Below are positions 2,441-58,690 of a DNA stretch of 64,000 nt, in pieces. This stretch comes from Octopus sinensis. Its lineage: Eukaryota. The notes beneath the pieces were generated by a model. It was not told the origin of the DNA. It did not search any database and saw nothing but the letters and a program-made list of their open reading frames with translations. The first letter of the stretch is position 1; the number at the start of each line of letters is the position of its first letter. The stretch is from positions 22,940,001 to 23,004,000 of the forward strand of contig NC_043005.1 of assembly GCF_006345805.1 (NCBI RefSeq), written 5' to 3'. The translations under genes were made by a program, and so were the position numbers.

Positions 2441-2909
2441 GGTCAATATGACCAACTAATGATTCAATATGGTCAAATCAAAATAATTGAAACAAGTAAA
2501 ATAAAACTATCTTCTTTCTATTTCTTTGTACATCCATCAATGACTTCAATGTCCAGTCTGCTTCTCAACTCACTTCTACTTAATCTATCTCTTAAACTGA
2601 CATTGCACATTCACTAGATTAGCTTTATTACATTTTCAAAAGCTAACATATATTATTCTAAGGAAGACTATTAATGTCCAAGATTCTTTGAGGTTCTTCT
2701 CATCTGACAGATAAAGGTAGTTTAGTGGGTTTGATGAAGATGATATTCAGTTTGTTTCCTATTAAAGTTAGTTTAATCAAATTGTGCAACCCATATCAGT
2801 ATGGAAAATGAACATTTCAAAACATTAAACATTATATTTTACTACGTTGAACATATTTCACAACATTTCAAACAATTTTTATATTTTTGATATCAAAACA
2901 AGTCCTTAC

Positions 2910-3004
2910 TCATCTGGTATCCCAGAAATAGGTACTGGTCCAAGGAACAGTAGGACAAATGCAATCATAAAGAATCCTGCTATAAGTAATTTATTAGCAT
3001 CATC
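2910..3004 (-). CDS. SLC18B1: SLC18B1-like coding exon 9 ([31 protein letters not shown])
   Basis: ttcttacag acceptor, GA|gtaagg donor, 95 nt, phase 0 to 2. Confidence 0.9.
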
Positions 3005-3253
3005 CTGTAAGAAAAATAAATAAATACATTGATGGTGATAGTCAGCGAGGGAGAAGGATAAGGAGACCATTTTTATTGGTCCTAAGGTCTCATAAGCACA
3101 CATATAAGACACATGTAAAAGGGGATAACAGAACATGTGGAATGTGCAGACAGATGGATAGATAATGAACATAGTTGCAAAGGAAAAACATAATACAAGT
3201 TTAAAATTCAGTTTATAAAACAAATAAAGACAACTCTTGTATGTATATATGTG

Positions 3254-3285
<32 letters not shown>

Positions 3286-3332
3286 ATATATATACATACA
3301 TACACACACACACACACCACACACACACACAC

Positions 3333-3427
<95 letters not shown>

Positions 3428-3762
3428 TATATATACGCGCACACACACACATGCACACAACATATATATATATTGTTGTATTTCAGGGTGGTCATTATAT
3501 TTATTACTTTTTTTTTCAAATAAACACACACACACACACAATATTTTTTTCTTCACTTGTTTATTACTGTTATTTTATTGCTTTACTGCCTGGCATTAAA
3601 ATAATAAAATAACAGTAATAAACAAGTGAAGAAAAAAATATTGTGTGTGTGTGTGTTTATTTGGCAAAAAAAATTAAATAATAAATAAAATGATCATCCC
3701 GAAATACAAGAATATCTGTTTCAACACATGATTTCACATCCAGAATCTTGCAAAACAAATTG

Positions 3763-3798
<36 letters not shown>

Positions 3799-3813
3799 CA
3801 CACACACACACAC

Positions 3814-3854
<41 letters not shown>

Positions 3855-3883
3855 CACACACACATATATATATATATACACAT

Positions 3884-3931
<48 letters not shown>

Positions 3932-4819
3932 TATATCATCATCATTATCGTTTAATGTCCGCTTTCCACACTAGCATGGGTTGGATGGTTTGACTGAGGG
4001 CTGGCGAACCAGATGGCTGCACCAGGCTCCAGTCTTGATCTGGCAGAGTTTCTACAGATAGATGCCCTTCCTAACGCCAACCACTCCAAGAGTGTAGTGG
4101 GTGCTTTTACATGTCACCAGCACGGGAGCCATTCAGGCGGTACTGGCAATGACCTCGCTCGAATCTTTTTACACATGTCACTGGCACAGGTGCCAGTAAG
4201 GCGATGCTGGTAACGATCCCGCTCGAATGGTGCCTTTTACATGCCACTGGCACGGAAGCCAGTTAGCCGACCTGGCAACGATCATGCTCAGATGGTGCTC
4301 TTAGCACCCTACTAGCACAGGGCACAAGTGCCAGTAAGGCGACGCTGGTAACGATCACACTCGAATGGTGCTTTTTATGTGCCACTGGCACAGTAGCTGG
4401 ATAGCCGCTCTGTCAACTATCACTCTCATATGGTGCTCTTTGCCATCATCGAATTTTACTTTGATTTTGATTTCACCTGCCTCAACAGGTCTTTGCAAGC
4501 AGCGTTTAGTGTCCAAAGTAGGAAAATGTATGCACAAGTCGGCTGGTTATGACCCTGGCATAGGCCATGAGGTTATGGTCGCATTTGGCTTGCCGGGTCT
4601 TCTCAAGCACAGCATGTTTCCAAAGATCTAGGTCATTAGTCATTTCCTTGGTGAGGCCTAAAGTTTGAAGGTCGTGCTTCACCACTTCATCCCAGGTCTT
4701 CCTGGGTCTACCTCTTCAAAAGGTTCTCTCAACCACTAGGATGTGGCACTTTTTCCCACAGCTATCCTCAACTATTCTCGCCACATGTCCATACCAGTGC
4801 AGTCGTCTCTCTTGCACAC

Positions 4820-4864
<45 letters not shown>

Positions 4865-5008
4865 AACACATACACACACACATATATATACACACACACA
4901 CACACATATATATAATTTACAAGATAAGGGCAAAAGAAAAATTCTAATGCCAAATATGCCGAAACAAAAATTGTCAATGACCATTATAATTTATGTGTCT
5001 CGAAACAC

Positions 5009-5041
<33 letters not shown>

Positions 5042-7590
5042 TACACATATATATGTATATACAGTGTAGCCAAGTATAATCTTATAGATTAAAGCGGATG
5101 CATTTTTGTATATGTTTGTATAAGTGTAAAGGAATCTCTGTATTTTCTATAACTATTTAGTATATGGTTGGTCATTGTGACCATTTAGCATTGACCTAGT
5201 TTTCTTGCTACAAAATCTAATTGCCAAATAGGAGTAAAGTCTAAGACAATATAATCCCCTTTCCACTTTAATTTTCTTTAGGAATAACTTCTGAAGTTTA
5301 TTTCACCCCTACCTACTTCTATAAATAGAAAATCTCTTTTGTCTCCATTCAACAGAAGATCCCTCCCTACTTTCTAGCAGTTCAAAATAACTTAAAGAAT
5401 ATTCTTCAGTCAGAAGATAAATTCTAATACCTTAATGTTCTTAACATTCAAATGAACATCTGTCTATATATCTACCCTCTTTATAATGTTATCAATTAAC
5501 ATGAAAATACGTATATGTATTGATGGAGAACCTCTATTAATGGCTGATGATTGCTCAACATTTTAAAACTGTTGTAATACTTACAATGTTTAATAAAATG
5601 ATGTAGCGTGAAACGATCGTACCAAATTACCAAAGATATTCTTGTTGCTTATTTTGATTATAATCACCCCATGGATTTATATGGATAACACCATACAAAA
5701 TTCTGGTGCATCTAATTTAAGTACCACATTCATTTGAATCTAAATTTTGCTGAATATATATATATTATTTGGACCTTTGGTATATGGCTAGAAGTATACC
5801 AATTAAAGCACTGTTACCATTCAGGCTACCTGATATCATCCATAGTTATGATATAACTGTCAATGGATCTACGTCAGGAATTTCACAGTGTTTGTTGAGT
5901 TTATAATGAATGAGGGAAATGGAAATGGAGTGTACAAGAATCTTTATGCAACACAACAATGATTTCGACCCATCCTACATCTGTCCATTGCAGATGGGAT
6001 ATTGTACAGCTAGGTGTTGCACCCACCAGTGCAGAATGCATCCCATTTTAAATTAGCTATTTTGCTAAATATACTTGGTTTCACTTGGCATGTTGTGGTC
6101 ACCAGTAGGTTGTTGGCTATAGTAATAGAGGATGGATACAATTTCTAGGTTATAACTGGTAAATGGGTCTGGCTATAGCTCACAGTGAATACACACCATA
6201 GGGTAAAGTAATAAAAGATAGAGAATAAAATAGCTAGATGACCTGAGCTGGAAAGCCCTTCATCATACATCTTTTCAATAAATGCTGACCTAGGATTAAA
6301 CAGCAACCACAACATATTATATTCAAATATTTATTTACCATCATTTTAACAAGATTGGTAAAATATGACATAGTAACACATGGGAGAATAAGTTACAGAA
6401 CAATAATAAGGTACAATTAATTGTAATAAAATATGAAGAGATGTATCAACTTACCACTCTGTCTGAGAGTTTACCCCAGAAAGGTGAAGCAATAGCATAC
6501 GTCACAGATATTAGAAGAAACACAAGACCAACAAGTGAACCACTTAATGAGAACTGAAACAAACAGAAGTACAGATATCAATGAATGTGTGTGTGTGTGT
6601 GTGTGTGTGTGTTAGTAAGTAAAACCTTATACACATATATGTAGATCTCTAATACTTATTACTAATCTATGATTTTCATTCTGGGCTCTCATGGCCAAGA
6701 AAAAAGAAAAATATAAAGAAAATATTAAACTATCTATTAAATTATATTTAGTATTTAGCCACTAAAGCTGCTTGCAGTAGATCTCCTTTGTTATCGTTTG
6801 GTTTGGGTTTTGATGTGGACAACACTTTTCATATCCCACCAAAGAGATAACAATACCTTACATGGGTGAAAACTTTTTTTAGCCTGGGGTGCCAGTGTTT
6901 CTCCTTTCCTTACCCAATGTCTTCGGTGCTTGACATTTTTATAGAGAACCCATTTCTCATCACCAGTCACTATTCAGTCTAAAAAAGGTTCATTCTTGAG
7001 ATGTGATAGCAAAGAAGAACATACATTCACTCTCTGCATGCGATTAACCTCAGAAAGTTTGAGGAACCTATTGACCCAATTTGCTTTTCCAATGGCACGC
7101 TGATATCGATGACTGGTTGAATGAACAAATCAAAGCTTCTCTGCTAGTTCCTCAACAGTTATGATGAGATTTTGTTCCACCAGGGTTTGCAGGATATTCT
7201 CGCTGAGCTCTACAGATCTTCTAAGATGAGGCTCATTGTGGAGGCTGTAGATTCCGGTTTGGAATTTCTGGAGCCACTGTTGACATTGGCTTATGCTTAC
7301 TGTCCAGTCCCCATATACTACATTAATATTCCTCACACTTTCCATTGTGTTGTTGCCTTTATTGAACTCATAAAGCAAACTATGCCAAATATGCTCCTTT
7401 GTCACTTCCATTATAGCTTTGAAAAAAATAACTGTTACAATTGATCTGCATTCTTCAAAACTTGCACTAAAAATAAGGTGAAGGTAAAATTACAACCTGC
7501 TTTTATAGCCAGTTGATGCAGGTAGTTTATCCCATCCCTCTCTGGCTTTTAGTTCATGCAATTGAAAAACCCACATTATTTATGGAATGA

Positions 7591-7626
<36 letters not shown>

Positions 7627-10600
7627 TTTATAAGGAGATTTTGACAGTGACATCAAAGTTTTGATGGGTTATTATTTGCCTCAATAAATTTCATCTAACC
7701 CATGCAAGCATGGAAAATTGGATGTAAAATCATTGCTAAATGCTACTGCAGATGATAGTGATATGAATGTAATTTTGTGTGTATGTGTGTGTCTGTGTAT
7801 ACCTAGTATTTTTTTTCTTTTTTGAAAATATGAGAGAAAGTTAATGTAGTGAATTAAATCAAGATTCAAACACAGATTTAAGCTTAATGCTTAATATGTC
7901 TTAATAATTCTATTAAATATATATACTAACATATTTTATATCTGTGATTTTATTTATGTCTATAGTGCATATTCTTGGATCTGAGTGTATGTGTGTGTGT
8001 GCTAGCATGAGTTTGCTTGTTTGTGTTTCGATGTGCATGTTTTATGTGTGTGTGTTTAGTTACTTTGTCTAAATTTTGGCTTTTTAAGAAGTATAGTTTT
8101 CAGACTATTTCAAGTTAATGTATCTGCTACAAATAGAAATACTTACTTACCATACGTAAATGTGGTTCAAGTATTGGATCTAAGCCTGCCCAGACTGTTG
8201 ATGACATGAAGATTACAAAACACATTACTAATAACATTGGAGACTTTAATAATGGCCTCATAATATTCTTCTTCTGTTCAACTTTCCAGTCTGAAAACAA
8301 CAAAAATGCAAAGTGATGACTTTATATATTAACACACCTAAGACTATTCAATTTCCTTTGATATAAATTTAAATTGGAATACAACCAAATACTAACTTAA
8401 TTATAGAGAAGTTAGACATTTCTATAAATCTCTCTAAATTCTTGATTATTTTAACCCTTTAGTGTTTAAACTAACTCTGTCTGACCCAAACAGCCTAACT
8501 GTACCATATTCAAAATAGCTAAATCTGGCCTCTTATCCCTACTTTACAACATCATTCTAAAAATAAACAACCACATCATTGAAATCTAGAAGCTAAGAGA
8601 TAATACATTATTAATTTCAAAACAATGTGAATAAATAAGCATTAAATTTAACAGAATAGTCTGAATGTTAAAGGGTTAAAGCTTACAACAGCCTTCATTG
8701 TGTTGGTAACATGGTAAAATGTACCCAGTATACCCTATAAGGTGGCTGGTGTAAGGAAAGGTATCCAGCCATGGAAACCATGCCAAAACAAAATATCAGT
8801 GAAGTGTGGCTCCCAGACATACCCCAAATAAGAACTAACTTAGACTGTGACAACAGATGCAAAATGAAGATGATGGTAATGAAACACATGTATTCATTTG
8901 AAACAATGTCAAGAATAGGTTAATTATGTGATCTACATTCATTTTTATATGTCAAAATTGGACAGGTTTATTTGTTGGAACAATTGCTTTTTTATTGTTT
9001 TTATTATTTCTTGTTTTCACATGATAATTTTCTGGATTTTACCTTTAGAGTCTAAATTTACAAAATTTATATTTATTCTATGTTTAACCCTTTCGTTACC
9101 AAACTGCCCAAAGCCGCCCGAAAAAAAATTTTGGTTAATGTGACCAAACCGCCCAAACCCGCCCGTATTTACCTATTCATATTTAAATGAGAATATCAGA
9201 ACAAATCTCTTTTGTACATTCATGAAAAGACATATTATACTTCATAAACAGTTCATCTACAGTTTTGTACAATAATCGAAGTGTAATTTTAATTCCGTGA
9301 ATTTTGGGAGATTTTTTTCCGAAATTTGTTCCTATTGTGTTTTCAAAATTTGTAATTCTGACAAAAAATGGATACGAATTTCATTATATCAAGCAGCGAG
9401 TCAGAATTCGAAGGATTTTCTACTGAAGACCTTCATAAATCTAACTCTATGACTGAAAAAAAAAAGCATGTGGTATTTGACAATGAATCTGATGTTTCAT
9501 TTTCCGAAAGTGAAAACAGTGAATCCAAGAGCTCCGACAGCGATAAAGAAAATGAATTGGCACCTGAATGGAGTGAAAATTTAAAAACTGTTTCTTTCGG
9601 TGATTTTTCTGAAGAAACTGGACCAAGCCACAGACTTTCCCAGGAGAGTAAAGCCTTAGACTATTTCTTTTCACTTTTTCGAATGAGCCTATTTGAAATC
9701 ATTACGGCAGAAACGAACCGTTACGCTAAATGTAAACAAAGCGAAAGAAAGGATAGTTAGTGGTTTCCCATAACCTTAAATGAAATATTATTATGGGTAT
9801 CAGAAAGTTACCCAGAATAACAAATTCTATCATAAAATTTTGTTGTATACCCAATTGAATATTAGCTAATAACCCATTTTCTATAGTGATGTTTGAACAA
9901 AATTTTAATAATTTTATATTTTGTTGAATTTACCTGTATCTACCTGCAATTAGAGTCACTTTGTGACAAAAATTATAGTATAGAATTGGTTTAGAACATT
10001 TCATTAAATTATCTTCCAAAAATCAGATTAATATATTGATAAATAAAAAAGTTATAGTTGTTTAATAAAACCAGACTAAATTTATGATTATGTTAGAAAT
10101 TAATTGAAACACTTAAGGGGTGTATTTTGGTCAGAAATATAGTAACGAAAGGGTTAAATTGATTCAGTTTCTTATCATCATAACATAAACTCTTCAAATT
10201 GGGAATTTTGTTTATTTCTAAATGTAGAATGTTAATATTTTGCCCACTAAGTCACTGGATGAAATTTGATGCTGATTGAAATGTGTGTGTGTATTTGTAT
10301 ATATAGGAAACAGCATATTCAAAACACAATTATATTCTAATATGATCTTTTTTATTAAAGCTTTCTCATATCTGCATATCAGACCCTTATAGTTCATTTG
10401 GGACAACAAAACCCCTAAGTTCATCTTTATTGCCAATGTTTCCAGACTAGCTCAACTTCATCATCAGGAGGTGCAGTAATTTTAACTTTTGTGGTATATA
10501 TATGTATATAAAAAATTAATAATATCAAAGGGTAATCTGGAATATTATAAATTTCCATTACCAGTGGCCTAGCATGTAAAAATTTAGTCAATAGACTATA

Positions 10601-11052
10601 TATTATTCATATAAATACAGTGTATATTTAAACACATACCTCTTATGTGTTTAAATGTACACTGTATTTATATGAATAATATATTGTATATTGACTAAAT
10701 TTTTACACGATAAGACACTGGTAATGGAAATTTGTAATATTCCAGATTACCTTTTGATACTATTAATTATTGATAATTTTCTGGATAATTTTCGAAATGA
10801 AAAAGCTGGCATGTTTATTTACTGCCAACAGGTAGCTGCGCTTGTGCAGTAGATTTGAAAAATTAGAATGTATCAGCATGGGGCATATACTGGATTGCCT
10901 CGTGTATATATATTTAATCTAAGGTGCACCTGCTAAAGAAGGCTTCACCTAGCAAATTATTTTATTTGCTAAAAAAATCTGAAACCATTGGTCCAGGAGT
11001 TAGTGCAAGTAGTCCTATGATGGCTACCTCTTATGTGTTTAAATGTACACTG

Positions 11053-11102
<50 letters not shown>

Positions 11103-11167
11103 TATGTATGTATGCATGTATATATATGTGTGTGTGCATGTTATATACACACATATATATGATGATG

Positions 11168-11198
<31 letters not shown>

Positions 11199-14100
11199 TA
11201 TGTATGTATGCATGTATATATATATGTGTGTGTGTGCATGTTATATACACACATATATATGATGATGATATATATATATATATATGCCATCATTATCATT
11301 TTATAACCACTTTTCATGTTGGTATGCATTAGATGAGTCATCAGGTTCTAAGTTCTTATTCAGATTTACTTTCCTCCCGGACTTATCAGGGAAGAACATC
11401 TTACTCAATATTTTATTTTCACATGGTTTCTAGGACTGGATTCTCTTCCAAATACTCACCACTTACAGAATGTAGTGGTGCATTTTACTGTCATACTAAC
11501 ACAAGAGGCTGTTATGTCTTCAACAAGACAATACAACAAGTACCTCCCACCCTCATGTTGTCTCTACTTAACAAAGTGTGTGTGTGTGTGTGTGTGTGAG
11601 AGAGTTGTGTATCAGTTAGAGGATGGCCAATAAATCAATGCAGCAAGCAAAAATACTTATGGTTCACCCATTTACATTTCTTAGATGAAATGAGATCAAC
11701 AAAATTTGTATCAGACAAAGTACCAGAGCCAAAAAAATTGACATGAAAACCCTTGTATGCAGTGCCCAAAAATAGCCACTGTCTAATGACTTTAAATTAT
11801 TAATTCATGTCTATATCAAATATTTCATTATTTCTGAAATCATTTATATAACAAATGGATTTGGGAAATCTGGGATTTTTGTTTGTAACACTTGGGACAA
11901 TTTCAAAAGACTGAAAAATATTAGCACAATTCACAGAAAAAAGCCTGGTGAATATGTCCAGGTGTGTTACATCATGACAGACTTTACATTATAGCAATGA
12001 GAGCACATCATTGATTAAGTCATTAATATCAATGAAAAAACTCTGACAAGCCAACTGATTGATGGAGCAAACAATTAGCTAAGAAATCAATTACTTAATT
12101 CATTAAAGAGAATATACCAAGTCTGAATACATCATGACAGAACTAGAACAATGAGGCAAGCTGCTGATGAGGTGATAAATGGTAATGAAAGGACTCTGAC
12201 AGACCAAATGATTGACTGATCAAACAATTAGTCAAGCAATTGATTAGTTAATTAAGAGAGTATATCCAGTTTGGATACATCATGACAGGCCTGTAACAAT
12301 GAGGGCACATCTTTGATGAGGTTGCAAATGACAATGAAAGCACTCTGAGAAACCAAGTCATTAAGTGACTGATTGATTAACTGATTGATTGATTGATCAG
12401 TTGGTTAGTTGGTTGGTTGGTTGGTTGGTTGATTCATTCATTGACCAAACAATTAGTCTATTGACTGAAACCAATAAAAGAATAAAAGAGTGAAACACTG
12501 ACCTTTTCGTTTTGATAATATCCAAAAGGTGAAAGGAACCACACACCAAAATATAGAACCAACAACAACAAATGGTAAGATGAAGCCTCCAACCTGATTA
12601 TTTCCAATAGAAAATAGAAATCATATAAGAAAAGAATTATTGGTTAATTCTATATTTGTTGGACAAATAAGAAAATGAAACATTCAAAGACATTGTTAGA
12701 ATATACACAGGGATTGTCCGTTTATTCATAAACACACACCACACACACACACACACACACACCTTACAAACACATACACATATATATCTGCAAGGAAGTC
12801 TAAAATTCAGTTTCCATTATACACTCAAGTTCATACATTTTGTGGAAGGGTATAATCAATTATACTGAACACAATATTTAATACGTACATTAATATATCA
12901 ACCACAGAAAGTTAAACTAAGGCATTTACTCTAGTGATTCTACCAATTTTGTCTTATCATGTCTTGGGCCCTCAACTTTTGATAGAGTCATAGGGATGCT
13001 ATCATGACAAATTGCACACCAGTTTTCTCTATGTGTCACAGTTGTATGCCAGAGCTCAAGTGTCTGCTAACAATTTGCCTGTCCATTCCTTGATGTTGTT
13101 TGTACATCATTTTGCCAGTTGGTTCCTTAAAAAATGGTTTTCATGAGTCTATTGGATTTCGTTAGATGGCCATATCATCTCAGCTTTCTTTTCTTCACCA
13201 TTTTAAGAAGATCTTCAAGGAGGCTAATGCAATACTGAATGGTTTTGTGAAGTTCCATTTACGATATGATTTAAGTACAAAATGTTTAAGGTGTTGTGAT
13301 AGCATCTCATTCACAATGCTTGTATCTTCCTCAGAATCTCTGCTGTGAGAATCTATGCCTCAGTTGCATACAGAAAGATGGAAAATAGCAGTATACAACA
13401 TACGGAGTCTGATTTTCCTGGCAACGAGTGCAGTTTTCACACAAGGCACCATTGGAGAGTGGTTCCATTTCACCATAGGTTTCCATTAAGCCTGAATCTT
13501 CTCTCCACCCACTTCAACATCTTCATGGAACTGATCATGAGCAATGTCCTTGAAAACCATATAGCAGAGTCAGTACTGGAGATGAGTACATCGAAAATCT
13601 AAGATTTATTGATAACAGTGAGGGGCTGGCAGGAAGGGAAGAGGAAATGATTGAATTAGTCAGCCATCTTGATAGAACTTCTGCCAAGAATGATATGGAA
13701 ATCAGTGCTGCAGAAATACAAACTCATGACAAATACCAATGATTTCATCTCATCCAACTTCTCTGTACAAGGACAGAAACTAGAAACGGTGCAGCAGATT
13801 AAATATCTGGAAGCAATTATTAATGATAAAAGATTAAAACCTGAAATTCTCACAAGTGCCATACAGATAATAACTGCACTAACAAAACTCATGGCAATGC
13901 AGAAAATTAAAAAGATTGATATAAACAACAAAACCAGAGTTTTGGGTACACTGGTACTTCCCATTAATACACAGTGGTCTCATATACAGTTACACTTCCA
14001 CCCTGGGCTATCAAAACATAGATGTGCCTCATTTCAGAAATTCGCAGAATTGTTAGAGCATCAGAAAAATAGCTATCTGTATTTCTTCCAATTCATATTA

Positions 14101-17100
14101 TCCATCTCCCACCAAGGTCAACTTTGCCTTTCATCCTTTCAGGGCTGATCATATAAAGTACCAATCATGTACAGGGAACAATGTAATCAACTAACCCCAA
14201 CCGAAAATTTGAAATGATTCTCCTTTTTATTAAGGCAGTGAGGTGGCAGAATCATTAACATGTTGGATAAAAATACTCAGCGGCATTTCTTTTGCCTTTA
14301 CATTCCAAGTTCCATTACACCTGAGGACAACTTTGCTTTTCATCCTTTTGAGAGTCAATAAGGACAAAGTACCAGTCACGTATTGATCAAATAGCCCCAC
14401 CACCTCTTAAAAATTGCTGTCCTTGTGCCAAAATTTGAAATTATTATTGAGTGAACAGTGCATGCCATCAAAATGACACTGGGGTAAAATATATGAAGCC
14501 CAGTATACCCATCATGACTATCTGTCTGATAAGGGTACACCAGGCACAAGCATCACAACCATATGTACATGAAATGGTGATCTCATCTCAAGGTAAACAG
14601 TACATGACATTATTATTATTATTATCATTATTATTATTATTATTATTATTAAGGCAGTGAGCTGGAAGAATCATTAGCATGCTGGGCGAAATGCTTAGTG
14701 GTATTTCGTATGCCACTACGTTCTGAGTTCAAGATCTGCTGAGGTCGACTTTGCCTTTCATCCTTTCAGAGTCAATGAAATAAGTACCAGTTATGCACTG
14801 GGGTCAATGTAATTGACTAGTCCTCTTCCCACCAAAATTTTCAAGGCCTTGTGCCTAGAGTAGAAATAATTATCATTATTATTATTATTATTAAGGCAGC
14901 AAGCCGGCAGAATCGTTAACATGCCAGACAAAATGCTTGGTGATATTTTGCCCATTGTTACATTCTGAGTTCAAATTCTGCTGAGGTCTACTTTGCCTTT
15001 CATCCTTTCAGGGGTCGATAAAATAAGTACCCGTTGAACACTGGGGTCGGTGTAATCGATTCATCACCTCCCCCAAAATTCCTGCCCTTGTGGCAAAATT
15101 TGAAACCATTATTTTTTTTTTTTTCTGTCGAGGTCAACTTTGCTTTTCATCTTTTTGGGGTCAATGTAATCAATTCATCCCCTCCCACAAAACTGCTGCT
15201 CTTGTGGGAAAATTTTAAACTATTATTGTTATTATTATATATACTAATTACACTACATCACCTGTAATTCATTCATAATTTATCATTTGAATTCTCATAA
15301 TCTAAAATAATTTCATATAATGCTTCAACAATATGAATTATCTAGGTATTTGATCAGAAAACAAAAGAAATTAGTTATTACACTGTATAAAGCTCCACCA
15401 AGTGCTGGTCCTACGGCAAGACCAATTCCTACAAACGTCTCTGTTATACCCTGTAAAAAGCATAAAATCAATGAGAAAGAAAACATATTTTATCAAAAAT
15501 ATATAATGAATGAGGTGTGTGGTGAAAAGGAGGAAGAGATAGAGACTTGTAACATAAAGGAAGAGATGAAAAGGAGGCAGAGATCGAGGCTTGTAACATA
15601 AGTACAACTGTGAGTTTTTGTGAAACAATCAGCTATGAGACATAGCCTGATCTTTGGGTGGAATAAGATTCCAATCTTACAGGAGGTAACATAATGAGTC
15701 ATGAAAACTAAAAGAAAGATTGGGAGAAATTGTAACGTGAAAGGATCTATCATCGAAGCACTGGCAGGGTGTCGAGATCCTTTCTAGTCACATACAAAAA
15801 TTCTTGTAGAAAACAAACAGACGAAACTCAGGTTAAAGGTGAACAGACAACTTGGTTTATTGATTCATGGTTGTACGTTGTCTGATGGGGAATAGACAGC
15901 CTCTGATATACTGCTGGTGTTGGTCGTTGAGGTTGGTTGAAGTTGGTTGAAGCTTGGTGTGTGGCTGTCAGAGCCAGGAAAACCGTGACCGATCGCAGTG
16001 CTGTCTTGAGCCGAAGAGAGAGATTTGAGGTTCGCGGGCTCGAGAGATGTTTTCCCGCACATGCGCATGGGGAAGACTTCCGGTGGCCACCCGGAAGTAG
16101 TCCCATTCTGCGCATGCGCGCCGAACCCTACACAGTAGCATCACTACAGGGCTCCCCTCCGAGTGCGAAGTACGGCAACCAGAATATTGTGGTGGTGCTG
16201 CAGAAAACAGAAGGCTTGCCGATCCCCCAGAAGACTTGGTACATACTATTATACAATAAGAAACATTTTAAAGTTAAATGTAAATTGTTTTTGAAAGTTT
16301 CTTGGGCCAATGCACTGTTCTGCCCGATTTTGTAACATACGGTGTGCTCGGGGCACCCGTTGACGGCGAGGGTGGTGTTGTAGGAGCCGGTGAAGGTGTT
16401 GGGCAGGTGAAGGCGTTTGTGCAGGTGAAGGCGCTTGTGCAGGTGAAAGTGTTGTTAAAGGTGCATAGGTGGGTGTGTCAAGGTTGTCATCAAAAGATGA
16501 AGACGTCTCAAAATGTGCCTTTTTTAAACGGTCCACGAAACGGTCTCCGAACGACCATTTATCTCAATCGTGAAAACCTTTGGTGTGCGAGAAAGCACAC
16601 GAAAAGGTCCTTTATAGGGAGAAACAAGTGGGCCCTTCACAGAATCGTCCCGAACAAAAACATGCGACCAGGTGTTCATATCCGGTGGAAGATGGGACGG
16701 TGGAGATTGCTTTCTGGGAAGCATGGGCGGAAGGTTTGAAAAATATTCCCGCAGTCTGGTGACATAGGTCGCCGGATCATGGGGCGGGGAAGTGTCTGGC
16801 ACCAACATCGTACCGGGCAATGCCAGTGTGGTACCATACAGCAGCTCTGCAGCAGAAAACCCCAGGTCTGCCTTGACAGCAGTCCGACAGCCGAGAAGCA
16901 CAATGGGCAGAAATTCGATCCAGGACTGTGGGTCCGAAGAGGCACGAAGAGCGGCCTTGAGCTGTCTATGGAACCGCTCAACCAATCCATTAGACGCTGG
17001 ATGGTAGCTTGTGGTGTGGATATGGTGCATACCCAAAATTCGCGACAATTCGCGAAATAGCGAGGCCTCAAACTGTCGTCCACGATCAGTTGTCAATCGG

Positions 17101-20100
17101 GACGGGACTCCGAAGCGAGAAATCCAGTTTGAAACGAAAGCTCGCACAACAGTCTCAGCAGAAATGTCTGCTATCGGAATGGCTTCTGGCCAGCGGGAGA
17201 AACGATCGACACAAGTTAATAGATAAGAGAACCCGCGACTCACAGGCCATGGTCCAACCAGATCGATGTGGACATGGCGAAAACGGGCCTCCGTGGGGGG
17301 AAATTGTCCAAGCGGGGCACGAACGTGCCGTTGAATCTTGGATCGTTGACACTTGGAGCAGGTGCGTGTCCAACAAGTAATTGTGCGACGCATATTCGGC
17401 CAGAAAACCGAGCAGTGATTAGTTTGAGGGTGGCAGCGATGCCAGGATGTGATAAGGAGTGCAGTGCTTCAAACACTGAGCGTTGATGGGTCTCAGGCAC
17501 CAGTGGCCTGGGAGATCCAGTTGAAGTGTCACAAAGAATGGTGCCTTCGGCTGACGGAAGCGGAAGGTAGGAAAACTGGCACACAGAGAACTTGGGAGAA
17601 GTTAAATCTAACGACGCCAAAGGTGGCTGCTCCTGCGATATGGCAGCTAAGTCGATAGCAGCAGGAGACGAAAGGGCGCAAACTGGAAGGCGAGAGAGAG
17701 CGTCAGCAGGAACGTTCTCTTTTCCAGGTATGTGTCGAATGTTGCTAGTAAATTGAGAGATAAAATCCAGGTGCCGAAAAGCACGGGGTGAGAGTTTGTC
17801 CGTTTTTGAAAACAGGGCAAACGTAAGGGGCTTGTGATCCGTATAGATCACAAAATCTCGCCCTTCAAGTTGATGCTGGAAATGACGAACCGATAGGTAG
17901 ATCGCTAGGAGCTCACGATCAAAGGTGCTGTATCGTCGTTCAGCTGGTTGCAGTTGACGGGAAAAGAAGGCTAGAGGTCGAACATGGTCATCCACTGTGT
18001 GTTGTAACACAGCGCCAATCGCAGTGTCCGATGCGTCCACAGTCAAAGAGAGAGAAGCACCAGGAACTGGATGTGCAAGCAAAAAACAGAAGCCAGCTCC
18101 TTCTTAATGGACTCAAAGGCTGTCACTGCCTCAACAGAGAGGGTGACTTGACTGTCCTTTCTAGGAGAGTCCTTTAACCCTGGTGAGAGGTAGCAGCTTA
18201 TCTGCACAACCGGGAATGAAGCGTCGGTAGAAATTGACCATCCCTAGATAATGCCTGAGCTGGCGCAAGGAAGTGGGGGGTGCGATGCGTTGAATGGCAT
18301 CGACTTTTGACGAGAGGGGGCTGATTCCAGTCGAATCAATATGATGCCCTAGAAAATCTAGGGAAGAGCGTCCGAAAACACACTTGTCGGGGTTTATGCG
18401 TATGCTATACGCGCGAAGACGCTGGAAGAGTTGAGAAAGGTGCCGGAGATGATTTTCTCGTGTGTCGCTCGCAATGAGTATGTCATCGACATAGGCAAAC
18501 ACAAAATCAAGACCGCGGACAACCTCATCAATGAAACGCTGGAAGGTGCTAGTAGCATTCCGCAAACCGAAACTCATGTACAAAAACTCAAAACACCCAA
18601 ACGGGGTAGTGATTGCAGTTTTTGGAACGTCGGCTGGGTTGACCGGTATTTGGTGGTAAGCGCGTATCAGATCGACCTTCGAAAAAATGGTACAACCATG
18701 GAGATTTGCTGTAAAGTCCCGGATTTCTAATCGGATAGCGATCGGCTATTGTGACGGCATTGAGGCGTCGATAGTCTCCAACCGGGCGAAAATCAGACTC
18801 GCCCTTTCGCGCCAAATGAAGGGGAGATGCCCATGGGCTGGTGGAGGGGCGTATAAGCCAAGTTGAAGCATGTGCTCAAACTCGGCTCTGGCCGTTTTAA
18901 GTCGGTCTGGCGCTAGGCGCCGGGGGCGTGAGAATACAGGTGGCCCATTGGTGGTGATGAAATGGAGGGTCGAGTGGGTAGGATTTTCCGGTTTAAAGGC
19001 AATGTCCACTAGCTCCGGAAATGAAACAAAAGAGAGTGAAAAGGGTCTCCAGAGGTGGCAACAAAGAATGTCGGGCTAAGGACCGCAGTGGTGGAACTCC
19101 CAGTCGGTGTAGAGAGCGACGTCGTGCTATCAAGAAGCCTCCGACGCCTGACATCCACCAATAGGTAAACCTATCCAGGAAATCAGCGCCGAGAATAGGA
19201 TGCGGGATGTCAGCGATGACGAAAACCCATCGAAAGTCTCGACGAAGGTTGAGGTTGAGGCGCAGCGAAATCTGACCGTAAGTGGTTATGGGAGACGAGT
19301 CAATAGCATGCAAGACAATCGAAGAGCGCTTGGGCTTGTCTGCAGCCAGACGAAGGGGCCAGATGCTGCAACAGGAGCCGGTGTCTACCATGAAGAATTT
19401 CTCCGACACCAGATCTTTTACAAAAACTGCACGATTTTTGGGAATGGCGATGGAAGAAGGTGACGTGCTCAACTCCTCCGGACTTAGTTTTCCGAGGGCT
19501 TGAAAATGCACGGCTGGGTACACCGATCTGCCCTTTTGGTAGAGCGACTACGACTGCGTTGTCGGCGCTCGATCGCACGGGATAGATCGTCGATTCGCCG
19601 CGTGAGCGCATCAATCCGCTCGGTTAGTGAAATTTGCGCAGGGCCCCCTATACATGCACAGAGGCCTCGCGATGGAGATGGATTCGGAAATTCCAGTATT
19701 CCATCGGCCATCGTGGCAATCTGAATATTGCTCTCCCCCGAACGTGTGTTGCGGCGGAGGATTTCTGCTTTCACAGACGCGTATGTGGCATCCGGGTGGG
19801 GACTTATTATTAGATCCCTGATCGATGCGGCGAGTCGGGGATGTAAGCCGGAATATAGCAGGTGCAACTGCTGCTGTGGAGAAATGGCATGTGCATCAAA
19901 ATACCACTCCACTTGGGCAAACCACAGGCCCATATCCCCCGTAAATGAAGGCAAACCTGAAGCCGTGCCTTTGTCGGAAGGAATCTGTGAGAAGGGGGCA
20001 GAAGGTATGGTCTAGAAGTGGAGAGAGAACACGTGGAACCGAGAAGGCAATTCAAAATTGTGTTTGTGTGTGCACCTCGTGGGTAGCAAAAAAAGGAATA

Positions 20101-21046
20101 GGTGTGTACAAGGAAAACAAAATACAGAAAAGAAAAAAAATGAATGTGTGTGTGTTTTTTCTTTTTTCTTTGTTTTTTTTTTTTTGTACTGTGTGCGATG
20201 AATAAGGCTATTTGACCCACCTCGCCGTGCTGAAAAGGAGAAAATAGGAAAATAAATGTGAATTTCCGCGCTCTTCGGCCCCAAAAAACACCTGTTCGCT
20301 GTGTCTTTTTCTATCCTGTTCTTTTTCTCAACTAGGGGTCACCAATTGTAACGTGAAAGGATCTATCATCGAAGCACTGGCAGGGTGTCGAGATCCTTTC
20401 TAGTCACATACAAAAATTCTTGTAGAAAACAAACAGACGAAACTCAGGTTAAAGGTGAACAGACAACTTGGTTTATTGATTCATGGTTGTACGTTGTCTG
20501 ATGGGGGAATAGACAGCCTCTGAGATACTGCTGGTGTTGGTCGTTGAGGTTGGTTGAAGTTGGTTGAAGCTGGTGTGTGGCTGTCAGAGCCAGGAAAACC
20601 GTGACCGATCGCAGTGCTGTCTTGAGCCGAAGAGAGAGATTTGAGGTTCGCGGGCTCGAGAGATGTTTTCCCGCACATGCGCATGGGGAAGACTTCCGGT
20701 GGCCACCCGGAAGTAGTCCCATTCTGCGCATGCGCGCCGAACCCTACACAGTAGCATCACTACAAAATAATAGGTGTGAGGTATTCAGATTGTAAAACAA
20801 TGGGTCAGTATAAATCAGGACATTGTTGCAGAATTCGAACACTGGACCTCAAGAAGACAATGTGCCCAATGTCAGTAAATGCATAAAAGAACCTATTACA
20901 CTCTCAGAGTGGCTGGTGTTAGGAAGGGCATCCAGCTGTAGAAACCTTGCCAAATAAGACTGGAGTTTGATGCAGCCCCTCAACTTACCAGCTCTGGTCA
21001 AACCATCCAACCCATGCCAGCATGGACAACGGACGTTAAATGATGA

Positions 21047-36048: not shown

Positions 36049-37016
36049 GTGCACATATGTATGTTTGTGAGTTGGTGTCTTCTTGTTATGATATTGGATG
36101 AATGCTGTAAATAAGTGTCACTGTTATACAAGCGGTGTCCTTCATTTCCAACCCACAGTGAAAGCATGTCCAACCAGGGGAAAAAATTTCTTTATTTGGA
36201 AACAAGAGAAGGTTAGAAGTAAGAAAGACATCTGGCTGTAGAAAATCGACCTCAACAAATTTCATCCAACCCAATCAAGCATGGAAAAGTAGACATTAAA
36301 TAATGATGATGATAATGATGAGGATGATATATTCATATTTATGTGTGTGCATATAAATATGTATACATGTGCAGATCTATGTTCAAGTGTGTATGTGTAT
36401 GTGTGTGTTTGACACTGCACTGTAGATTATAGAAAAGGCAAATGATAACTTATAGATAAATACAATGTGTTAAACTGAAATAAGTACTAAGGTCAATATG
36501 ACTGACTAACCTTGAAGGCAGTGCCTTGACCTGGTTGTAGCCTAATGACAAAAAGCAGCAAAAGAACGAAACATGCATGCATGCACACACACACACACAC
36601 AAATGGAGACAATATTAATATGCAAGCATACATTTATCATCATCATCATTTAATATCTGCTTTCCGTGCTGGCATGGGTTGGGCGGTTTGATTGAGGATT
36701 GATGAGCTGTGGGGAAGGCAGTTCTTTTAGCAGAGAGATGATCTGGCATAAAACTTGCTGTTAAATTAGTACCAGTTGTCTTGCAATGCTTTTCCCTGGA
36801 ACCTACTATGGTGAGCAAGAGAGTGGTGAAAGTCTTGTACAAGCTTTTGTCACTTAAATCCACTTATGTAACAGATGTCACACTGTCATTTCGTTTCTTA
36901 ATCTGTTTTGTATTTTATAAAGTCCGATGATGATGGCTATCCATGCACATACAAGGACAAATGTAAATCAGAAGAACCCGGCTGAACGTGAGATGGCAAG
37001 GCAGTCATCATATATA

Positions 37017-37098
<82 letters not shown>

Positions 37099-37509
37099 AT
37101 CACCATCATCATCATCATCACTTAACATCTGTTTTCCATGCTGACATGGGTCGGATGGTTTGACTGAAAAACGGTAAGCTGGGGAGCTGCACCAGGTTCC
37201 AATCTGATTTGGCAAGGTTCCTACAGCTGGATGCCCTTCCCAATGCCAACCACCCCGAGAGTGTAGTGGGTGTCTTTTACGTGCCACCAGCACGAGGGCC
37301 ATTCACCTGACACCAGTATTGGCCTTGACTATGGTCTCACTTGGCTTGACAGATCTACACAAGCAGTGTATATCGCCGAAGGTCTCAGTCACTTATCACT
37401 GTCTATGAGGCCCAATGCTCAAGCAGTGCATTTTACGTGCCACCGGCATGGGTGCCAGTCAGATGGCAGTGGCATTGGCCATGACTATGATTTCACTCAG
37501 CTCGACAGG

Positions 37510-37542
<33 letters not shown>

Positions 37543-38059
37543 ATGGAGTGGATTAGTGAAAGAAAGGAGTACTCAACACATTGATAGAATTTACATACAT
37601 TATTATTTAAAAGTTTGCTTCCGTTCCATGCAACTTAAAGTTTTGTAGGCTTCTAACAGAAACCCAGCTCATTCAGGTTAGAGTACTGAATGAAGAAAGA
37701 CAGGAAGTCCAAGATGGCTACTGGAAAATGGGCTGCTGTTGATAAAGGCAGGTGACATAATGATGTTAGAAGTAAGGTTGGCATTTCAGTGACACCAGAT
37801 ACCTTTATACATAAATGCAAGACTACATACACACAGACATGCATGCACACACACATGCATGCACTCATCTATGTACATATACTTCTCCTCTCTTCCCTGC
37901 CCCTACACCACCAAACCTCAGTCCAATGCCTATTCCCACCCCCAGGGAACAAAAACAATATATACAATACACACATATATATATGTGTGTATATATGTAT
38001 GAAGGGATGTGTGTATGTATGTATGTATGCAGGGATTCGTGTGCATGTGTGTGCGTATG

Positions 38060-38151
<92 letters not shown>

Positions 38152-38560
38152 ATCACCATCATCATCATCATCACTTAACATCTGTTTTCCATGCTGACAT
38201 GGGTCGGATGGTTTGACTGAAAAACGGTAAGCTGGGGAGCTGCACCAGGTTCCAATCTGATTTGGCAAGGTTCCTACAGCTGGATGCCCTTCCAATGCCA
38301 ACCACCCCGAGAGTGTAGTGGGTGTCTTTTACGTGCCACCAGCACGAGGGCCATTCACCTGACACCAGTATTGGCCTTGACTATGGTCTCACTTGGCTTG
38401 ACAGATCTACACAAGCAGTGTATATCGCCGAAGGTCTCAGTCACTTATCACTGTCTATGAGGCCCAATGCTCAAGCAGTGCATTTTACGTGCCACCGGCA
38501 TGGGTGCCAGTCAGATGGCAGTGGCATTGGCCATGACTATGATTTCACTCAGCTCGACAG

Positions 38561-38592
<32 letters not shown>

Positions 38593-39112
38593 ATGGAGTG
38601 GATTAGTGAAAGAAAGGAGTACTCAACACATTGATAGAATTTACATACATTATTATTTAAAAGTTTGCTTCCGTTCCATGCAACTTAAAGTTTTGTAGGC
38701 TTCTAACAGAAACCCAGCTCATTCAGGTTTAGAGTACTGAATGAAGAAAGACAGGAAGTCCAAGATGGCTACTGGAAAATGGGCTGCTGTTGATAAAGGC
38801 AGGTGACATAATGATGTTAGAAGTAAGGTTGGCATTTCAGTGACACCAGATACCTTTATACATAAATGCAAGACTACATACACACAGACATGCATGCACA
38901 CACACATGCATGCACTCATCTATGTACATATACTTCTCCTCTCTTCCCTGCCCCTACACCACCAAACCTCAGTCCAATGCCTATTTCCCACCCCCAGGGA
39001 ACAAAAACAATATATACAATACACACATATATATATGTGTGTATATATGTATGAAGGGATGTGTGTATGTATGTATGTATGCAGGGATTCGTGTGCATGT
39101 GTGTGCGTATGC

Positions 39113-39144
<32 letters not shown>

Positions 39145-55492: not shown

Positions 55493-58400
55493 CATCATCA
55501 TCATCATTGTTTAACGTCTACTTTCCATGCTAGCATGGGTTAGATGATTTGACTGATGACTGGCGACTCACATGGCTGCACCAGGCTCCAATCTGATCTG
55601 GCAGAGTTTCTACAGCTGGATGCCCTTCCCAATGCCAACAGCTCCAAGAGTGTAGTGGGTGCTTTTACGTGCCACTGGCACAAGGGCCAGTCAGGTGGTA
55701 CTGGCAATGGCCACATTCAAATGGTGCTTTTTACATGCCACCTGCACAGGAGCCAGTCCAGCTGCACTGGCAACGACCTCACTCAAATGTTTTTTAATGT
55801 GCCAGCAGCATTTTTACGTGCCACTGGCATAGAAGCCAGTCAGCTGCTCTGGCAACGATCATGCTCAGATGGTGCCCTTAGTGCTCCACTGGCACAGGTG
55901 CCACTCATCAAAGTTGATTCGATTTTGATTTCACTTGCCTCAACAGGTCTTTGTAAACAGAGTTTAGTGTCCAATGAAGTAAAGGTACACATAAGTGGGC
56001 TGGTTACACCCCTGGCATAGGCCACTTGGCTTGCCAGGTCCTCTCACACACTGCATATTTCCAAAGGTCTCGGTCACTAGTCATTGCCTCAGTGAGGCCT
56101 AATGTTTGAAGGTTGTGCTTCACTGCCTCATCCCAGGTCTTCCTGAGTCTACCTCTTCCACAGATTCCCTCAACCGCTAGGGTGTGGCACTTTTTCACAC
56201 AGCTATCCTCATCCATTCTCGCCACATGACCATTCCAGTGCAGTCGTCTCTCTTGCACACCACATCTGATGCTTCTCGGGCCCAACTTTTCTCTCAAGGT
56301 ACTTACACTCTGTCGAGTATGCACACTGACATTACACATCCATCGGAGCATACTGGCTTCATTTCTTGCGAGCTTACGCATGTCCTCAGCAGTCATGGCC
56401 CATGTTTGACTGCTATGTAGCATGGCTGTTCATACACATGCGTCATACAGTCTACCTTTTACTCTGAGCGAGAGGCCCTTTGTCGCCAGCAGAAGTAAGA
56501 GCTCTCTGAACTTTGCCTAGGCTTTTCTTATTCTAGCAGCTATACTTTCAGTGCACCCTGCCCAGCTATTGACTTGGTCACCTAGGTAACAGAAGCTATC
56601 AACTACTTCTAGTTTTTCTCCCTGGAATGTGGCGGAAGTTGTTCTCTGCACATTTTCAGTGTTTATTGCTCCTGAGCATCTGCCACATACAAAAACTATC
56701 TTCTCAGTTAGCCTTCCTTTGATATTGCTGCACCACTTATGTGTCCATAGCTTACACCAGGTACATCTTATATAGTTTCTATCTACGCCTTTTCTACAGA
56801 TGAAACAGGGCCATCTACCTGAAGGGATTTATAGTTTGTCTGCCTTCCTACTTATTAGGACTTTGGTTTTAGCTAGGTTAACTCTAAGGCCCTTCAATTC
56901 TAATCCTTGTTTCCACACTTGAAACTTCCCCTCTAGTTCTGATAGTGACTCAGCAATTATAGCAAGGTCATCAGCATAGAGGAGCTTCCAGGGGCATCCT
57001 GTCTTGAATTCCTCTGTTATTGCCTGGAGGACTATGATAAATAGAAGGGGGCTGAGGACTGAACCTTGGTGGACCCCTATCTCTACTCTGAATTCTTCAG
57101 GGTACTCCTTGCCAACTCTCACCTTACTTACAGTGTGCCTGTACATGGTTTGCACAGCTCTCACTAACTATTCATCTATCCCTAGTTTCCTCATTGACCA
57201 CCAGATAAGGGATCAGGGGACTCTGTCAAAGGCTTTTTTCATGTCAACAAAAGCCAGGTAAAGAGGTTTATCTTTGGCTACGTATTTCTCCTGCAGCTGT
57301 CTTACTAGAAATATAGCATCAGTGGTGCTTTTCCCTGGCACAAACCCAAACTGCATCTCATCTAAACTGACTCTCTCCCTAATTAGTTGGGCTATGACCC
57401 TCTCTGTGACCTTCATTACCTGATCCAACAACTTGATACCTCTGTAATTATTTGTATCTAAAGCATCACCTTTACCTTTGTAGCAGTTGACTATAGTGCT
57501 GCTACACCAATCATTCAGTATGACTCCTTTGTGTATCACCTGGTTAACTATACGGGTGACTAGGCTAATGCCAACACTGCCAGATATTTTGAGCATCTCT
57601 GCAGTGATTCCTGATGGGTTGGGGGCTTTCCCTGTCTTCAAACTCTTAATTGCTTTATCTACCAAGGCACTCTCAATTTGGATAGCTGGTCCCTCTGTTG
57701 GGTTGACATTCGGCAGACTCTCTTTCTGCCATTCACTATATCCTCTTCTATTTCGTCAAAGCTTCGAGTAATATGTCTCTAAATCTTTGTCCATTTGTAG
57801 GATCTTTCAGCTTCTAGACCCTTCTCCTCCATGCTGGTCGTCTTCTGGGCATCCACTTAGCCCTGATCCTACCAGTCACTAACTACCAGTCTATGTTGTG
57901 GGGTACATCCTTCGCTTGGGAAGGTTTTGGCATTTATAAGCAGCCATCTTTCCCTTTTTCTGACAAGGATGTAGTCAATTTGGCTAGTGTGTCTGCCAGA
58001 ATGGTAGGTGACTAGGTGACTGGCAAGTTTCCTGATGTTAGCATTGCAAACCATAAGATCGTTTGCATTGCAGAACTTCAGCAGCCTGGTTCCCTCCTCA
58101 TTGTGGGAACCAAAACCGTAGCCTCCATGTACGCCATGGAAGCCCCCTGTATGTCGTCCAACATGTCCATTGAAGTCACCAGCCACAAAGAGAAGGTCCG
58201 TGTCATTCGTCAACAAGGTAGTCTGCAAGAGGGTGTCATAAAATTGGTTTTTCTGTCCATCGTGCAGCCCCAGCTGAGGGGCATAGTCTGAGATAATGGT
58301 TGCTAACCCATGATGAAGCACTAATCTAATCTTAAGTATTCTGTCGCATACTCTGACTACCTTGATTACCTTATCAACCCATTTCCCCGCATGAAGTATA

Positions 58401-58690
58401 CCCACGCCCCCAACCTCATCAGCGTTCCCTGCCCAGAAAATCTTGTACCTGTGTTCTTTGCCTGTGAGGAACCTAGCAGAACCGCCTCTCCACCTTACTT
58501 CTTGGAGGCAGCACAAATCGACACATCTCCGTTCAAGCATCTCAACAGTCTCACTGGACCTACCTTTCAGTGTGCCAACGTTGAGAGTGCCAACCCTGAG
58601 GGTTTGGAAGGTGTAGGCCCTTGAGACCCTGGGACGGGGGACAGCAGCTTAATGTACTTGAAAAGAAAGCTCGCATTTGGCAGAATTCAT
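55493..58690 (-). mobile_element. Near full-length degenerate RTE-clade LINE (APE endonuclease + RT)
   Basis: GTLNVGTL, CLQEVRW, AGDFNGHVG, SQIDY, QHRLV (APE); NYRGIKLL, QFGF, FVDMKKAFD, HQGSVLSP, LYADD (RT); coding sequence interrupted at about 57737-57868; (GAT)n tail. Confidence 0.95.

What the first reader, a model, noticed from the sequence alone, without database searches (positions are those of the whole stretch)
10514..11060. 388-bp direct-repeat-bounded hammerhead unit with a 255-bp fold-back head
Seen: a 33-bp sequence recurs exactly 388 bp apart (10637, 11025) and encloses a hammerhead motif. The first ~125 bp of the unit is also duplicated in inverted orientation immediately upstream (loop about 5 nt), and the unit ends in (TA)n. 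Known: Penelope insertions show partial tandem pseudo-LTRs and inverted 5' copies, and non-LTR retrozymes are small hammerhead-containing repeat units with circular RNA intermediates. Inference: this looks like slightly more than one pass of reverse transcription around a circular or tandem template. No protein-coding remnant was recognised. This copy carries G5>A in the core, so it is probably inactive.
Basis: partly seen in the sequence, partly recalled or inferred. Interest (0 to 1): 0.75.

Follow-up and report, generated by a model that had tools for sequence, protein, structure and literature searches.

The report
Non-coding Penelope mini-element with hammerhead
This is a worn, partly deleted copy of an abundant 471-base non-coding repeat that carries a predicted self-cutting hammerhead RNA and is likely copied around the genome by Penelope-type jumping-gene enzymes; the kind is known, but its two-armed insertions show clearly that the two arms almost always end at two different fixed points.

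Summary
In detail: an exact 33-bp repeat 388 bp apart, a 132-bp fold-back (91%, 5-nt loop), a type I hammerhead with G5>A, and a (TA)n end. But 388 bp is not the unit. The family unit is about 471 bp; this copy lost 83 bp. The family has 1,654 exact 19-mer hits (about 3,600 segments estimated), several subfamilies with compensatory hammerhead changes, and no RT/GIY-YIG in register in 137 loci. Copies are 5'-truncated, under two units long, end at two fixed internal sites about 97 nt apart, and half carry a head-to-head inverted arm. In two-armed insertions one arm uses each site (31 of 34; 16 of 17). 5' ends are modestly enriched at the predicted cut site. A young Neptune-type Penelope element in the genome has a similar hammerhead layout, but the true partner was not found. 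Verdict: a non-autonomous Penelope-like element (non-LTR retrozyme type), a new member of a known kind; a circular RNA is neither shown nor excluded. The scan noted similar elements on other DNA.

The parts
10495..10511 (.). TA-rich left flank (likely left half of the target site; TSD not resolvable)
   Evidence: sequence
10512..10638 (-). Inverted arm, unit positions about 134 back to 8; its outer end is the family's site B 3' end
10639..10643 (.). 5-nt loop CCTCT of the head-to-head junction, closed by a TA shared by both arms (2-bp microhomology)
10637..11003 (+). Forward arm, first pass: unit positions 1 to about 370
10929..10997 (+). Type I hammerhead motif: stem I CCTG/CAGG, core CTAAAGA with G5>A (10935), extended stem II, near-palindromic stem III ACCATTGGT, predicted cut after 10993
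11003..11004 (+). Junction of a private 83-bp deletion (unit about 371-453) that removes a GT..AG intron-like stretch plus 5 neighbouring bases
11004..11057 (+). End of the unit and second pass (unit 454-471, then 1-33); includes the 33-bp repeat copy 11025-11057; ends at the family's site A
11059..11099 (.). (TA)n at the 3' junction (target microsatellite)

Best explanation
This is a decayed copy of an abundant non-coding 471-bp repeat that carries a predicted type I hammerhead ribozyme and is likely copied in trans by the reverse transcriptase and GIY-YIG nuclease of a Penelope-like element, probably of the Neptune type. Shown: family size, unit length, lack of linked coding sequence, two fixed 3' ends (site A, unit about 33-49; site B, unit about 124-139), variable 5' ends, head-to-head arms in half of the loci, one A end and one B end per two-armed insertion, TA-rich junctions. 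Inferred: the enzyme cuts both strands of a (TA)n target and primes two cDNAs inside the unit RNA, one at A and one at B; each runs 5'-ward, past the unit boundary when the RNA holds more than one unit, and the two cDNA ends are joined through 2-3 matching bases, which here made a near-perfect fold-back. The hammerhead would cut as a dimer through its palindromic stem III and would set the 5' end of part of the templates. This copy would be inert: one hammerhead, G5>A, a broken stem II pair and an 83-bp deletion.
For: Family: 1,654 exact 19-mer matches, reversed control 0; about 3,600 segments estimated from 44 exact of 97 coverings. Period 433-489 bp in 44 tandem copies, consensus 471. In 86 loci from the first 100 listed matches on contig C1: 113 of 139 3' ends at A (66) or B (47); 43 of 86 loci with a head-to-head arm; 75 of 139 ends next to (TA)4 (no background control). 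One A plus one B end in 31 of 34 classifiable pairs (permutation mean 17.1, 0 of 100,000) and 16 of 17 in the top-hit loci (mean 8.7, p=0.0006). Hammerhead: 89.5% of cells paired and 25 cells with both sides changed against 9.7 shuffled (0 of 500) in 20 hand-picked rows; stem III is ACCATTGGT, ACCATGGT or ACCAATTGGT in 40, 6 and 4 copies. 5' stops within 10 nt of the cut: 15 of 62 at risk against 92 of 976 elsewhere, p=0.0005. A young element with 99.3% identical 1,676-bp pLTRs, RT plus GIY-YIG and a CX4CxxC linker carries a hammerhead followed by TAGCATG, as the unit has TAGCGTG. Literature: inverted 5' copy and a tail at one end only (PMC8557442, PMC3846280, passages); extension of both strands and internal initiation at two sites (PMC11167929, parts 1-2).
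Against: The partner element was not found in 42 stretches (360 kb) around 40 of 147 listed GIY-YIG hits; unit versus Neptune pLTR alignments barely beat shuffles (45 vs 44, 54 vs 53). The A-B tail is about 97 nt, longer than the 30-40 bp in print. 12 of 43 junctions are near-perfect fold-backs (null 4.0, p=0.0003), more than two independent cDNAs would give. The 5' excess is not nucleotide-precise (about 354-370; several starts lie 3-7 nt before the cut), and for site-A arms three other 20-nt bins are as high (11/55, 8/43, 8/25 against 8/35). 'Pairs with a change on both sides' did not beat shuffles (6 vs 5.0, 158 of 500), and one subfamily often has a degenerate core. PMC11167929 found hammerhead cleavage dispensable for insertion in vitro.
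Confidence: 0.78

Rival explanations
1. Same element, but the template is a circular monomer RNA made by hammerhead cutting and ligation (the retrozyme model); copies over one unit come from rolling around the circle. Not exclusive with the best explanation.
For: 17 of 139 segments are 471 nt or longer and cross the cut site seamlessly; 6 of 51 top-hit loci and 1 of 143 C1 segments hold two whole hammerheads. The consensus folds strongly as a circle (z -4.8; this copy z -2.3; 40 shuffles). A circle explains how full units survive rounds of 5' truncation (inference). Mussel and coral retrozymes make circles (PMC7229834, part 2 and passages).
Against: No copy reaches two units: longest 871 bp in the top-hit loci, 682 in C1; a 856-bp tandem query found no other copy covering it whole among 40 scored. 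The tail of lengths is too thin to prove a ceiling. The 5' excess at the cut fits linear ends better. Uncleaved read-through RNA or template jumps explain the same copies.
Confidence: 0.3
2. The inverted arm comes from one cDNA folding back on itself (self-priming) and the outer end is then set by the nuclease cutting the new hairpin at an AT-rich site of the element. Concerns the head only.
For: This junction is what a 2-bp TA snap-back with a 5-nt loop would give; 12 of 43 C1 junctions are near fold-backs, many with 19-20 of 20 paired bases and 4-16-nt loops. PMC3846280 (passages) reads such palindromes as self-priming.
Against: 31 of 43 junctions join two distant unit positions, and both arms end at the same two sites used by solo copies (21 A, 14 B of 42). 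Template switching would have to be added.
Confidence: 0.3
3. Ordinary 5'-truncated pLTR ends of a coding Penelope element that I did not find.
For: Coding Neptune-type elements with hammerhead pLTRs exist in this genome; only 40 of 147 listed and 5,029 candidate GIY-YIG sites were examined.
Against: The unit closes on itself every about 471 bp in 44 copies; 0 of 137 loci run into RT/GIY-YIG sequence in register; the 5 loci with a fragment within reach have it detached, inverted or behind TA; no shared long 5' flank.
Confidence: 0.06
4. A one-off local duplication and fold-back, or a satellite.
For: The locus itself lies in a 12.7-kb duplicated block.
Against: Thousands of dispersed copies on many contigs with element-defined ends.
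Confidence: 0.01

Closest known systems
Non-LTR retrozymes of animals (PMC7229834, part 2 of 6 and passages; bioRxiv 10.64898/2026.07.22.740005, parts 1-3 of 5)
   Same: Non-coding, low-GC repeat unit with a type I hammerhead; thousands of copies; coexists with PLEs, which both papers propose as the mobiliser or source.
   Different: 471-bp unit (above the 150-450 bp of the first paper, inside the 51-972 bp of the second); no dimers or multimers of whole units among 137 loci; circles and cleavage untested; fixed internal 3' ends and inverted arms (the word 'inverted' does not occur in the main text of PMC7229834).
Insertions of EN+ Penelope-like elements: partial tandem pLTR, inverted 5' copy, tail (PMC8557442 and PMC3846280, passages; PAc in PMC11167929, parts 1-2 of 4)
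   Same: 5' truncation, partial tandem, head-to-head inverted arm, tail on one arm only, two internal initiation sites, AT-rich or (TA)n targets, palindromic junctions.
   Different: No ORF; the unit repeats directly; the tail is about 97 nt rather than 30-40; A/B asymmetry counted in 51 pairs.
Non-autonomous Chlamys PLEs such as MRC1 (PMC8557442, passage)
   Same: Non-coding, pLTR-forming, PLE-type passenger.
   Different: Those resemble their autonomous partner at the 3' end and often form multicopy arrays; here no partner was found and arrays are absent; most Chlamys lack hammerheads.
Minimal/dimeric PLE hammerheads (PMC4209133, passages)
   Same: Short palindromic stem III, extra base after position 9 before a G-C pair, families with covariation.
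   Different: Long two-part stem II; activity untested here.

Membership tests
Non-LTR retrozyme | Type I hammerhead in the unit | tested here: met
   Family core CTGAnGA/GAAA/GUC intact in 54 of 88 spans; covariation in stem II. This copy has G5>A.
Non-LTR retrozyme | No protein-coding capacity, small low-GC unit | tested here: met
   471 bp; no long frame; no RT/GIY-YIG in register in 137 loci; 29% GC over 10001-12000.
Non-LTR retrozyme | Tandem repeats, dimers to multimers, with two or more complete hammerheads | tested here: inconclusive
   Not met at this locus (one hammerhead). Two hammerheads in 6 of 51 top-hit loci and 1 of 143 C1 segments; none reaches two whole units. Only 137 of some thousands of loci were read.
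Non-LTR retrozyme | Self-cleavage and linear plus circular monomer RNA | not testable with these tools
   Only folding and an indirect 5'-end excess.
Non-LTR retrozyme | Target-site duplication larger than 4 bp when present | tested here: inconclusive
   Junctions read by eye lie in TA runs; no TSD could be called; no formal test run.
EN+ Penelope-like insertion architecture | 5'-truncated partial tandem forming pLTR-like repeats | tested here: met
   44 copies with period 433-489.
EN+ Penelope-like insertion architecture | Adjacent inverted 5'-truncated copy | tested here: met
   43 of 86 C1 loci; 27 of 51 top-hit loci.
EN+ Penelope-like insertion architecture | Tail between two internal initiation sites, on one arm only | tested here: met
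   A/B in 31 of 34 and 16 of 17 pairs; tail about 97 nt, not 30-40.
EN+ Penelope-like insertion architecture | Insertion into AT-rich or (TA)n targets | tested here: met
   75 of 139 3' ends next to (TA)4; genome is TA-rich and no background was computed.
Autonomous Penelope-like element or its pLTR | RT plus GIY-YIG ORF continuous with the repeat | tested here: not met
   0 of 137 loci; no copy of the unit in 42 PLE stretches.
Neptune-clade passenger | Shared terminal sequence with an autonomous Neptune element | tested here: inconclusive
   Shared order hammerhead, TAGC[AG]TG, AT-rich end sites; alignment scores only 1 above the shuffle maximum.

The most novel reading that the evidence does not exclude
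A dispersed, sub-dimeric hammerhead mini-element whose copies record the Penelope mechanism in vivo: a two-headed enzyme primes the two target strands at two different fixed sites of one RNA (one site each, 47 of 51 pairs), on templates whose 5' end is set by the hammerhead, with full units regenerated by passing the cut site on a circle or by template jumping rather than by genomic tandem arrays.
Probability: 0.3. Interest if true: 0.55.

Novelty: new member of a known kind. Interest (0 to 1): 0.3.

Why it matters
The locus itself is a dead copy. The family is useful as a short natural read-out of how Penelope enzymes insert: it puts numbers on the 'tail at one end only' rule (47 of 51 pairs) and hints that hammerhead cutting acts in vivo, which PMC11167929 could not show for PAc. 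A 471-nt RNA with two mapped candidate start sites is a convenient substrate for the existing in vitro PLE assay. Six paper searches listed no paper on such a family in octopus-like genomes; repeat libraries such as Repbase and Dfam and supplements were not searched and may hold it.

Tried and rejected
Rfam: no hammerhead hit; only microsatellite-driven miRNA noise. Search for the partner: GIY-YIG scan of G000 (147 listed of 5,029 candidates); 20 loci of +/-1.5 kb, then 42 stretches of 8-10 kb: no copy of the unit, only a distant sister mini-family. Many tblastn hits came from frames that are not PLE proteins and were ignored. Spliced copies: a junction pattern allowing 0-6 bases matched only this locus and its duplicate, so the deletion is not a recurrent splice product; the intron reading stays unproven (one subfamily has GA in place of GT; a sister family lacks the donor). 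Expression: no RNA holder listed; contigs of 4 guessed-RNA runs lay on the unit, no joint of intron size among those shown, no piece spans it; no evidence either way. Arm-versus-arm identity could not tell one template from two: the mate was the best hit in 14 of 52. A recalled resemblance of 9500-9757 to a piggyBac transposase was not confirmed by Pfam. Look-up by sequence in earlier findings: nothing.

Full report
Observation. The 33-bp exact repeat (10637, 11025), the 132-bp fold-back with a 5-nt loop, the single type I hammerhead motif with G5>A and the (TA)n end are all present. Rfam does not score the hammerhead. The window lies in a 2.72-Gb, AT- and microsatellite-rich animal genome; 'octopus-like' is my inference and comes from no call.

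It is one of thousands. A DNA search of G000 gave 2,379 candidates; the 40 scored were 85-90% identical apart from a near-identical duplicate. An exact 19-mer of the unit occurs 1,654 times, its reversed control 0 times; 44 of 97 coverings in top-hit copies keep it exactly, which suggests about 3,600 segments. I read 51 distinct top-hit loci and 86 loci covering 99 of the first 100 listed matches on contig C1. The C1 set is chosen only by that 19-mer; the top-hit set is biased to long copies of this subfamily.

The unit is 471 bp, not 388. Other copies carry 83 more bases right after the hammerhead; 44 tandem copies have periods of 433-489. The short junction occurs only here and in a duplicate 42.9 kb upstream, inside a block of at least 12.6 kb at 97.9%. 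The lost stretch looks like an intron (ATG|GTAAAT...CTAAT...TAG) but the deletion is 5 bases larger, no spliced copy was found, and the donor is not kept in all subfamilies; I leave that reading open.

No coding link. None of 137 loci runs into RT or GIY-YIG sequence in register; five have a detached or inverted fragment nearby. The unit was absent from 42 stretches around 40 GIY-YIG hits. The genome does hold coding PLEs, among them a young one with 1,676-bp pLTRs at 99.3%, a 479-aa frame and a 781-aa RT plus GIY-YIG frame with the CX4CxxC linker that PMC8557442 (passages) gives for Neptune and links to (TA)n targeting. Its pLTR has a type I hammerhead followed by TAGCATG; TAGC[AG]TG also follows 4 of 12 other hammerheads found near PLEs, and the unit has TAGCGTG. 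Direct alignments to that pLTR are marginal, so a Neptune-type mobiliser is likely but not identified.

The hammerhead is under structural selection at family level. The best segment per C1 locus is 65-97% identical to the consensus of this subfamily. In 20 rows that I picked from the matches, 89.5% of cells pair, and 25 cells change on both sides against 9.7 in shuffles (0 of 500); the count of covarying pairs alone is not significant (6 against 5.0), and relatedness inflates such counts. Stem III changes length but stays palindromic or nearly so, the mark of dimeric hammerheads in PMC4209133 (passages). The core is intact in 54 of 88 spans. This copy has one hammerhead, G5>A and a broken stem II pair, so it would not cut.

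Ends show the mechanism. Of 139 C1 segments, 66 end at site A (unit 25-56; TA runs blur the edge) and 47 at site B (120-142); 26 end elsewhere; 75 abut (TA)4. 43 of 86 loci have a head-to-head inverted arm (44 without the centre filter). Of pairs with both ends at A or B, 31 of 34 have one of each (permutation mean 17.1, never reached in 100,000), and 16 of 17 in the top-hit loci (p=0.0006); 10 pairs in each set had an end elsewhere and were left out. This locus fits: B on the inverted arm, A on the forward arm. PMC3846280 and PMC8557442 (passages) describe a 30-40-bp tail on one arm only, and PMC11167929 (parts 1-2) shows that a PLE protein, predicted to be a dimer, cuts and extends both strands and starts at two internal RNA sites that bound the tail. 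The simplest reading (inference) is two primings, one per target strand, one per site. 31 of 43 junctions join distant unit positions, while 12 are near fold-backs against 4.0 expected, so self-priming may add to it; this locus alone fits both.

Linear or circular template. 5' stops within 10 nt of the predicted cut are 15 of 62 at risk against 92 of 976 elsewhere (p=0.0005); the densest 20-nt window starts at unit 354-356; 6 of 28 inverted arms of the top-hit loci start in 351-370. The peak is clear for B arms (7 of 27) but not unique for A arms, and some starts lie a few bases before the cut, so stalling at the ribozyme fold is an alternative. Copies that cross the cut (17 of 139 are a unit or longer) need uncut read-through RNA, a template jump or a circle. 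The longest copy is 871 bp. The unit folds well as a circle (z -4.8). The data do not decide.

Comparison and verdict. It works like a Penelope insertion and is built like a non-LTR retrozyme, which bioRxiv 10.64898/2026.07.22.740005 (parts 1-3 of 5) argues are non-autonomous PLE derivatives; PMC7229834 (part 2, passages) reports such circles in a mussel. It fails the test for an autonomous PLE and is inconclusive on tandem arrays and circles. PMC13282606 (passages) lists Penelope-like families in an octopus and does not use the words hammerhead or retrozyme in its main text. Supplements of these papers were not read and may list the family. Earlier notes of this scan describe similar elements on other DNA. 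New member of a known kind; interest 0.3.

Noticed in passing
window 15728-20764: Young Ty3/Gypsy-type LTR retrotransposon on the minus strand: two 421-bp LTRs 99.3% identical, with RT and integrase frames in pieces.
   Followed up: partly
window 2871-15457: Block duplicated 42.9 kb upstream at 97.9%, at least 12.6 kb long; real segmental duplication or uncollapsed haplotype.
   Followed up: partly
G000:C1 about 207,472,500-207,480,100 (L205, L083): Young Neptune-type PLE: 1,676-bp pLTRs at 99.3%, period 5,933 bp, a 479-aa upstream frame without Pfam match and a 781-aa RT-GIY-YIG frame, hammerhead in the pLTR; many near-identical GIY-YIG hits genome-wide.
   Followed up: partly
L094:5136-5729: Distant sister mini-element, period about 456 bp, hammerhead with CTCGAG stem III, profile match E 7.7e-7.
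   Followed up: partly
L085, L089, L094, L102, L214, L217, L220, L227, L229: Several unrelated type I hammerhead families near PLE fragments, most with a 6-nt palindrome in stem III (CTCGAG, CATATG, CGATCG, CAATTG, CAGCTG); TAGC[AG]TG lies 50-100 nt downstream in 4 of 12: a possible shared PLE cis motif or splice acceptor.
   Followed up: partly
L198: Complex multi-arm copy whose two arms are 98.8% identical while the best other copy is 91.5%.
   Followed up: no
unit 177-203 (window about 10810-10836): Weak 25-27-nt match (E 0.04) to another repeat in L086 and L098; may be chance.
   Followed up: no
window 11995-12356; 57213-58648; 36925-39140: A 153-bp degenerate tandem repeat; RT and endonuclease-like frames of a LINE relic; microsatellite-rich stretches repeated about 1,052 bp apart.
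   Followed up: no
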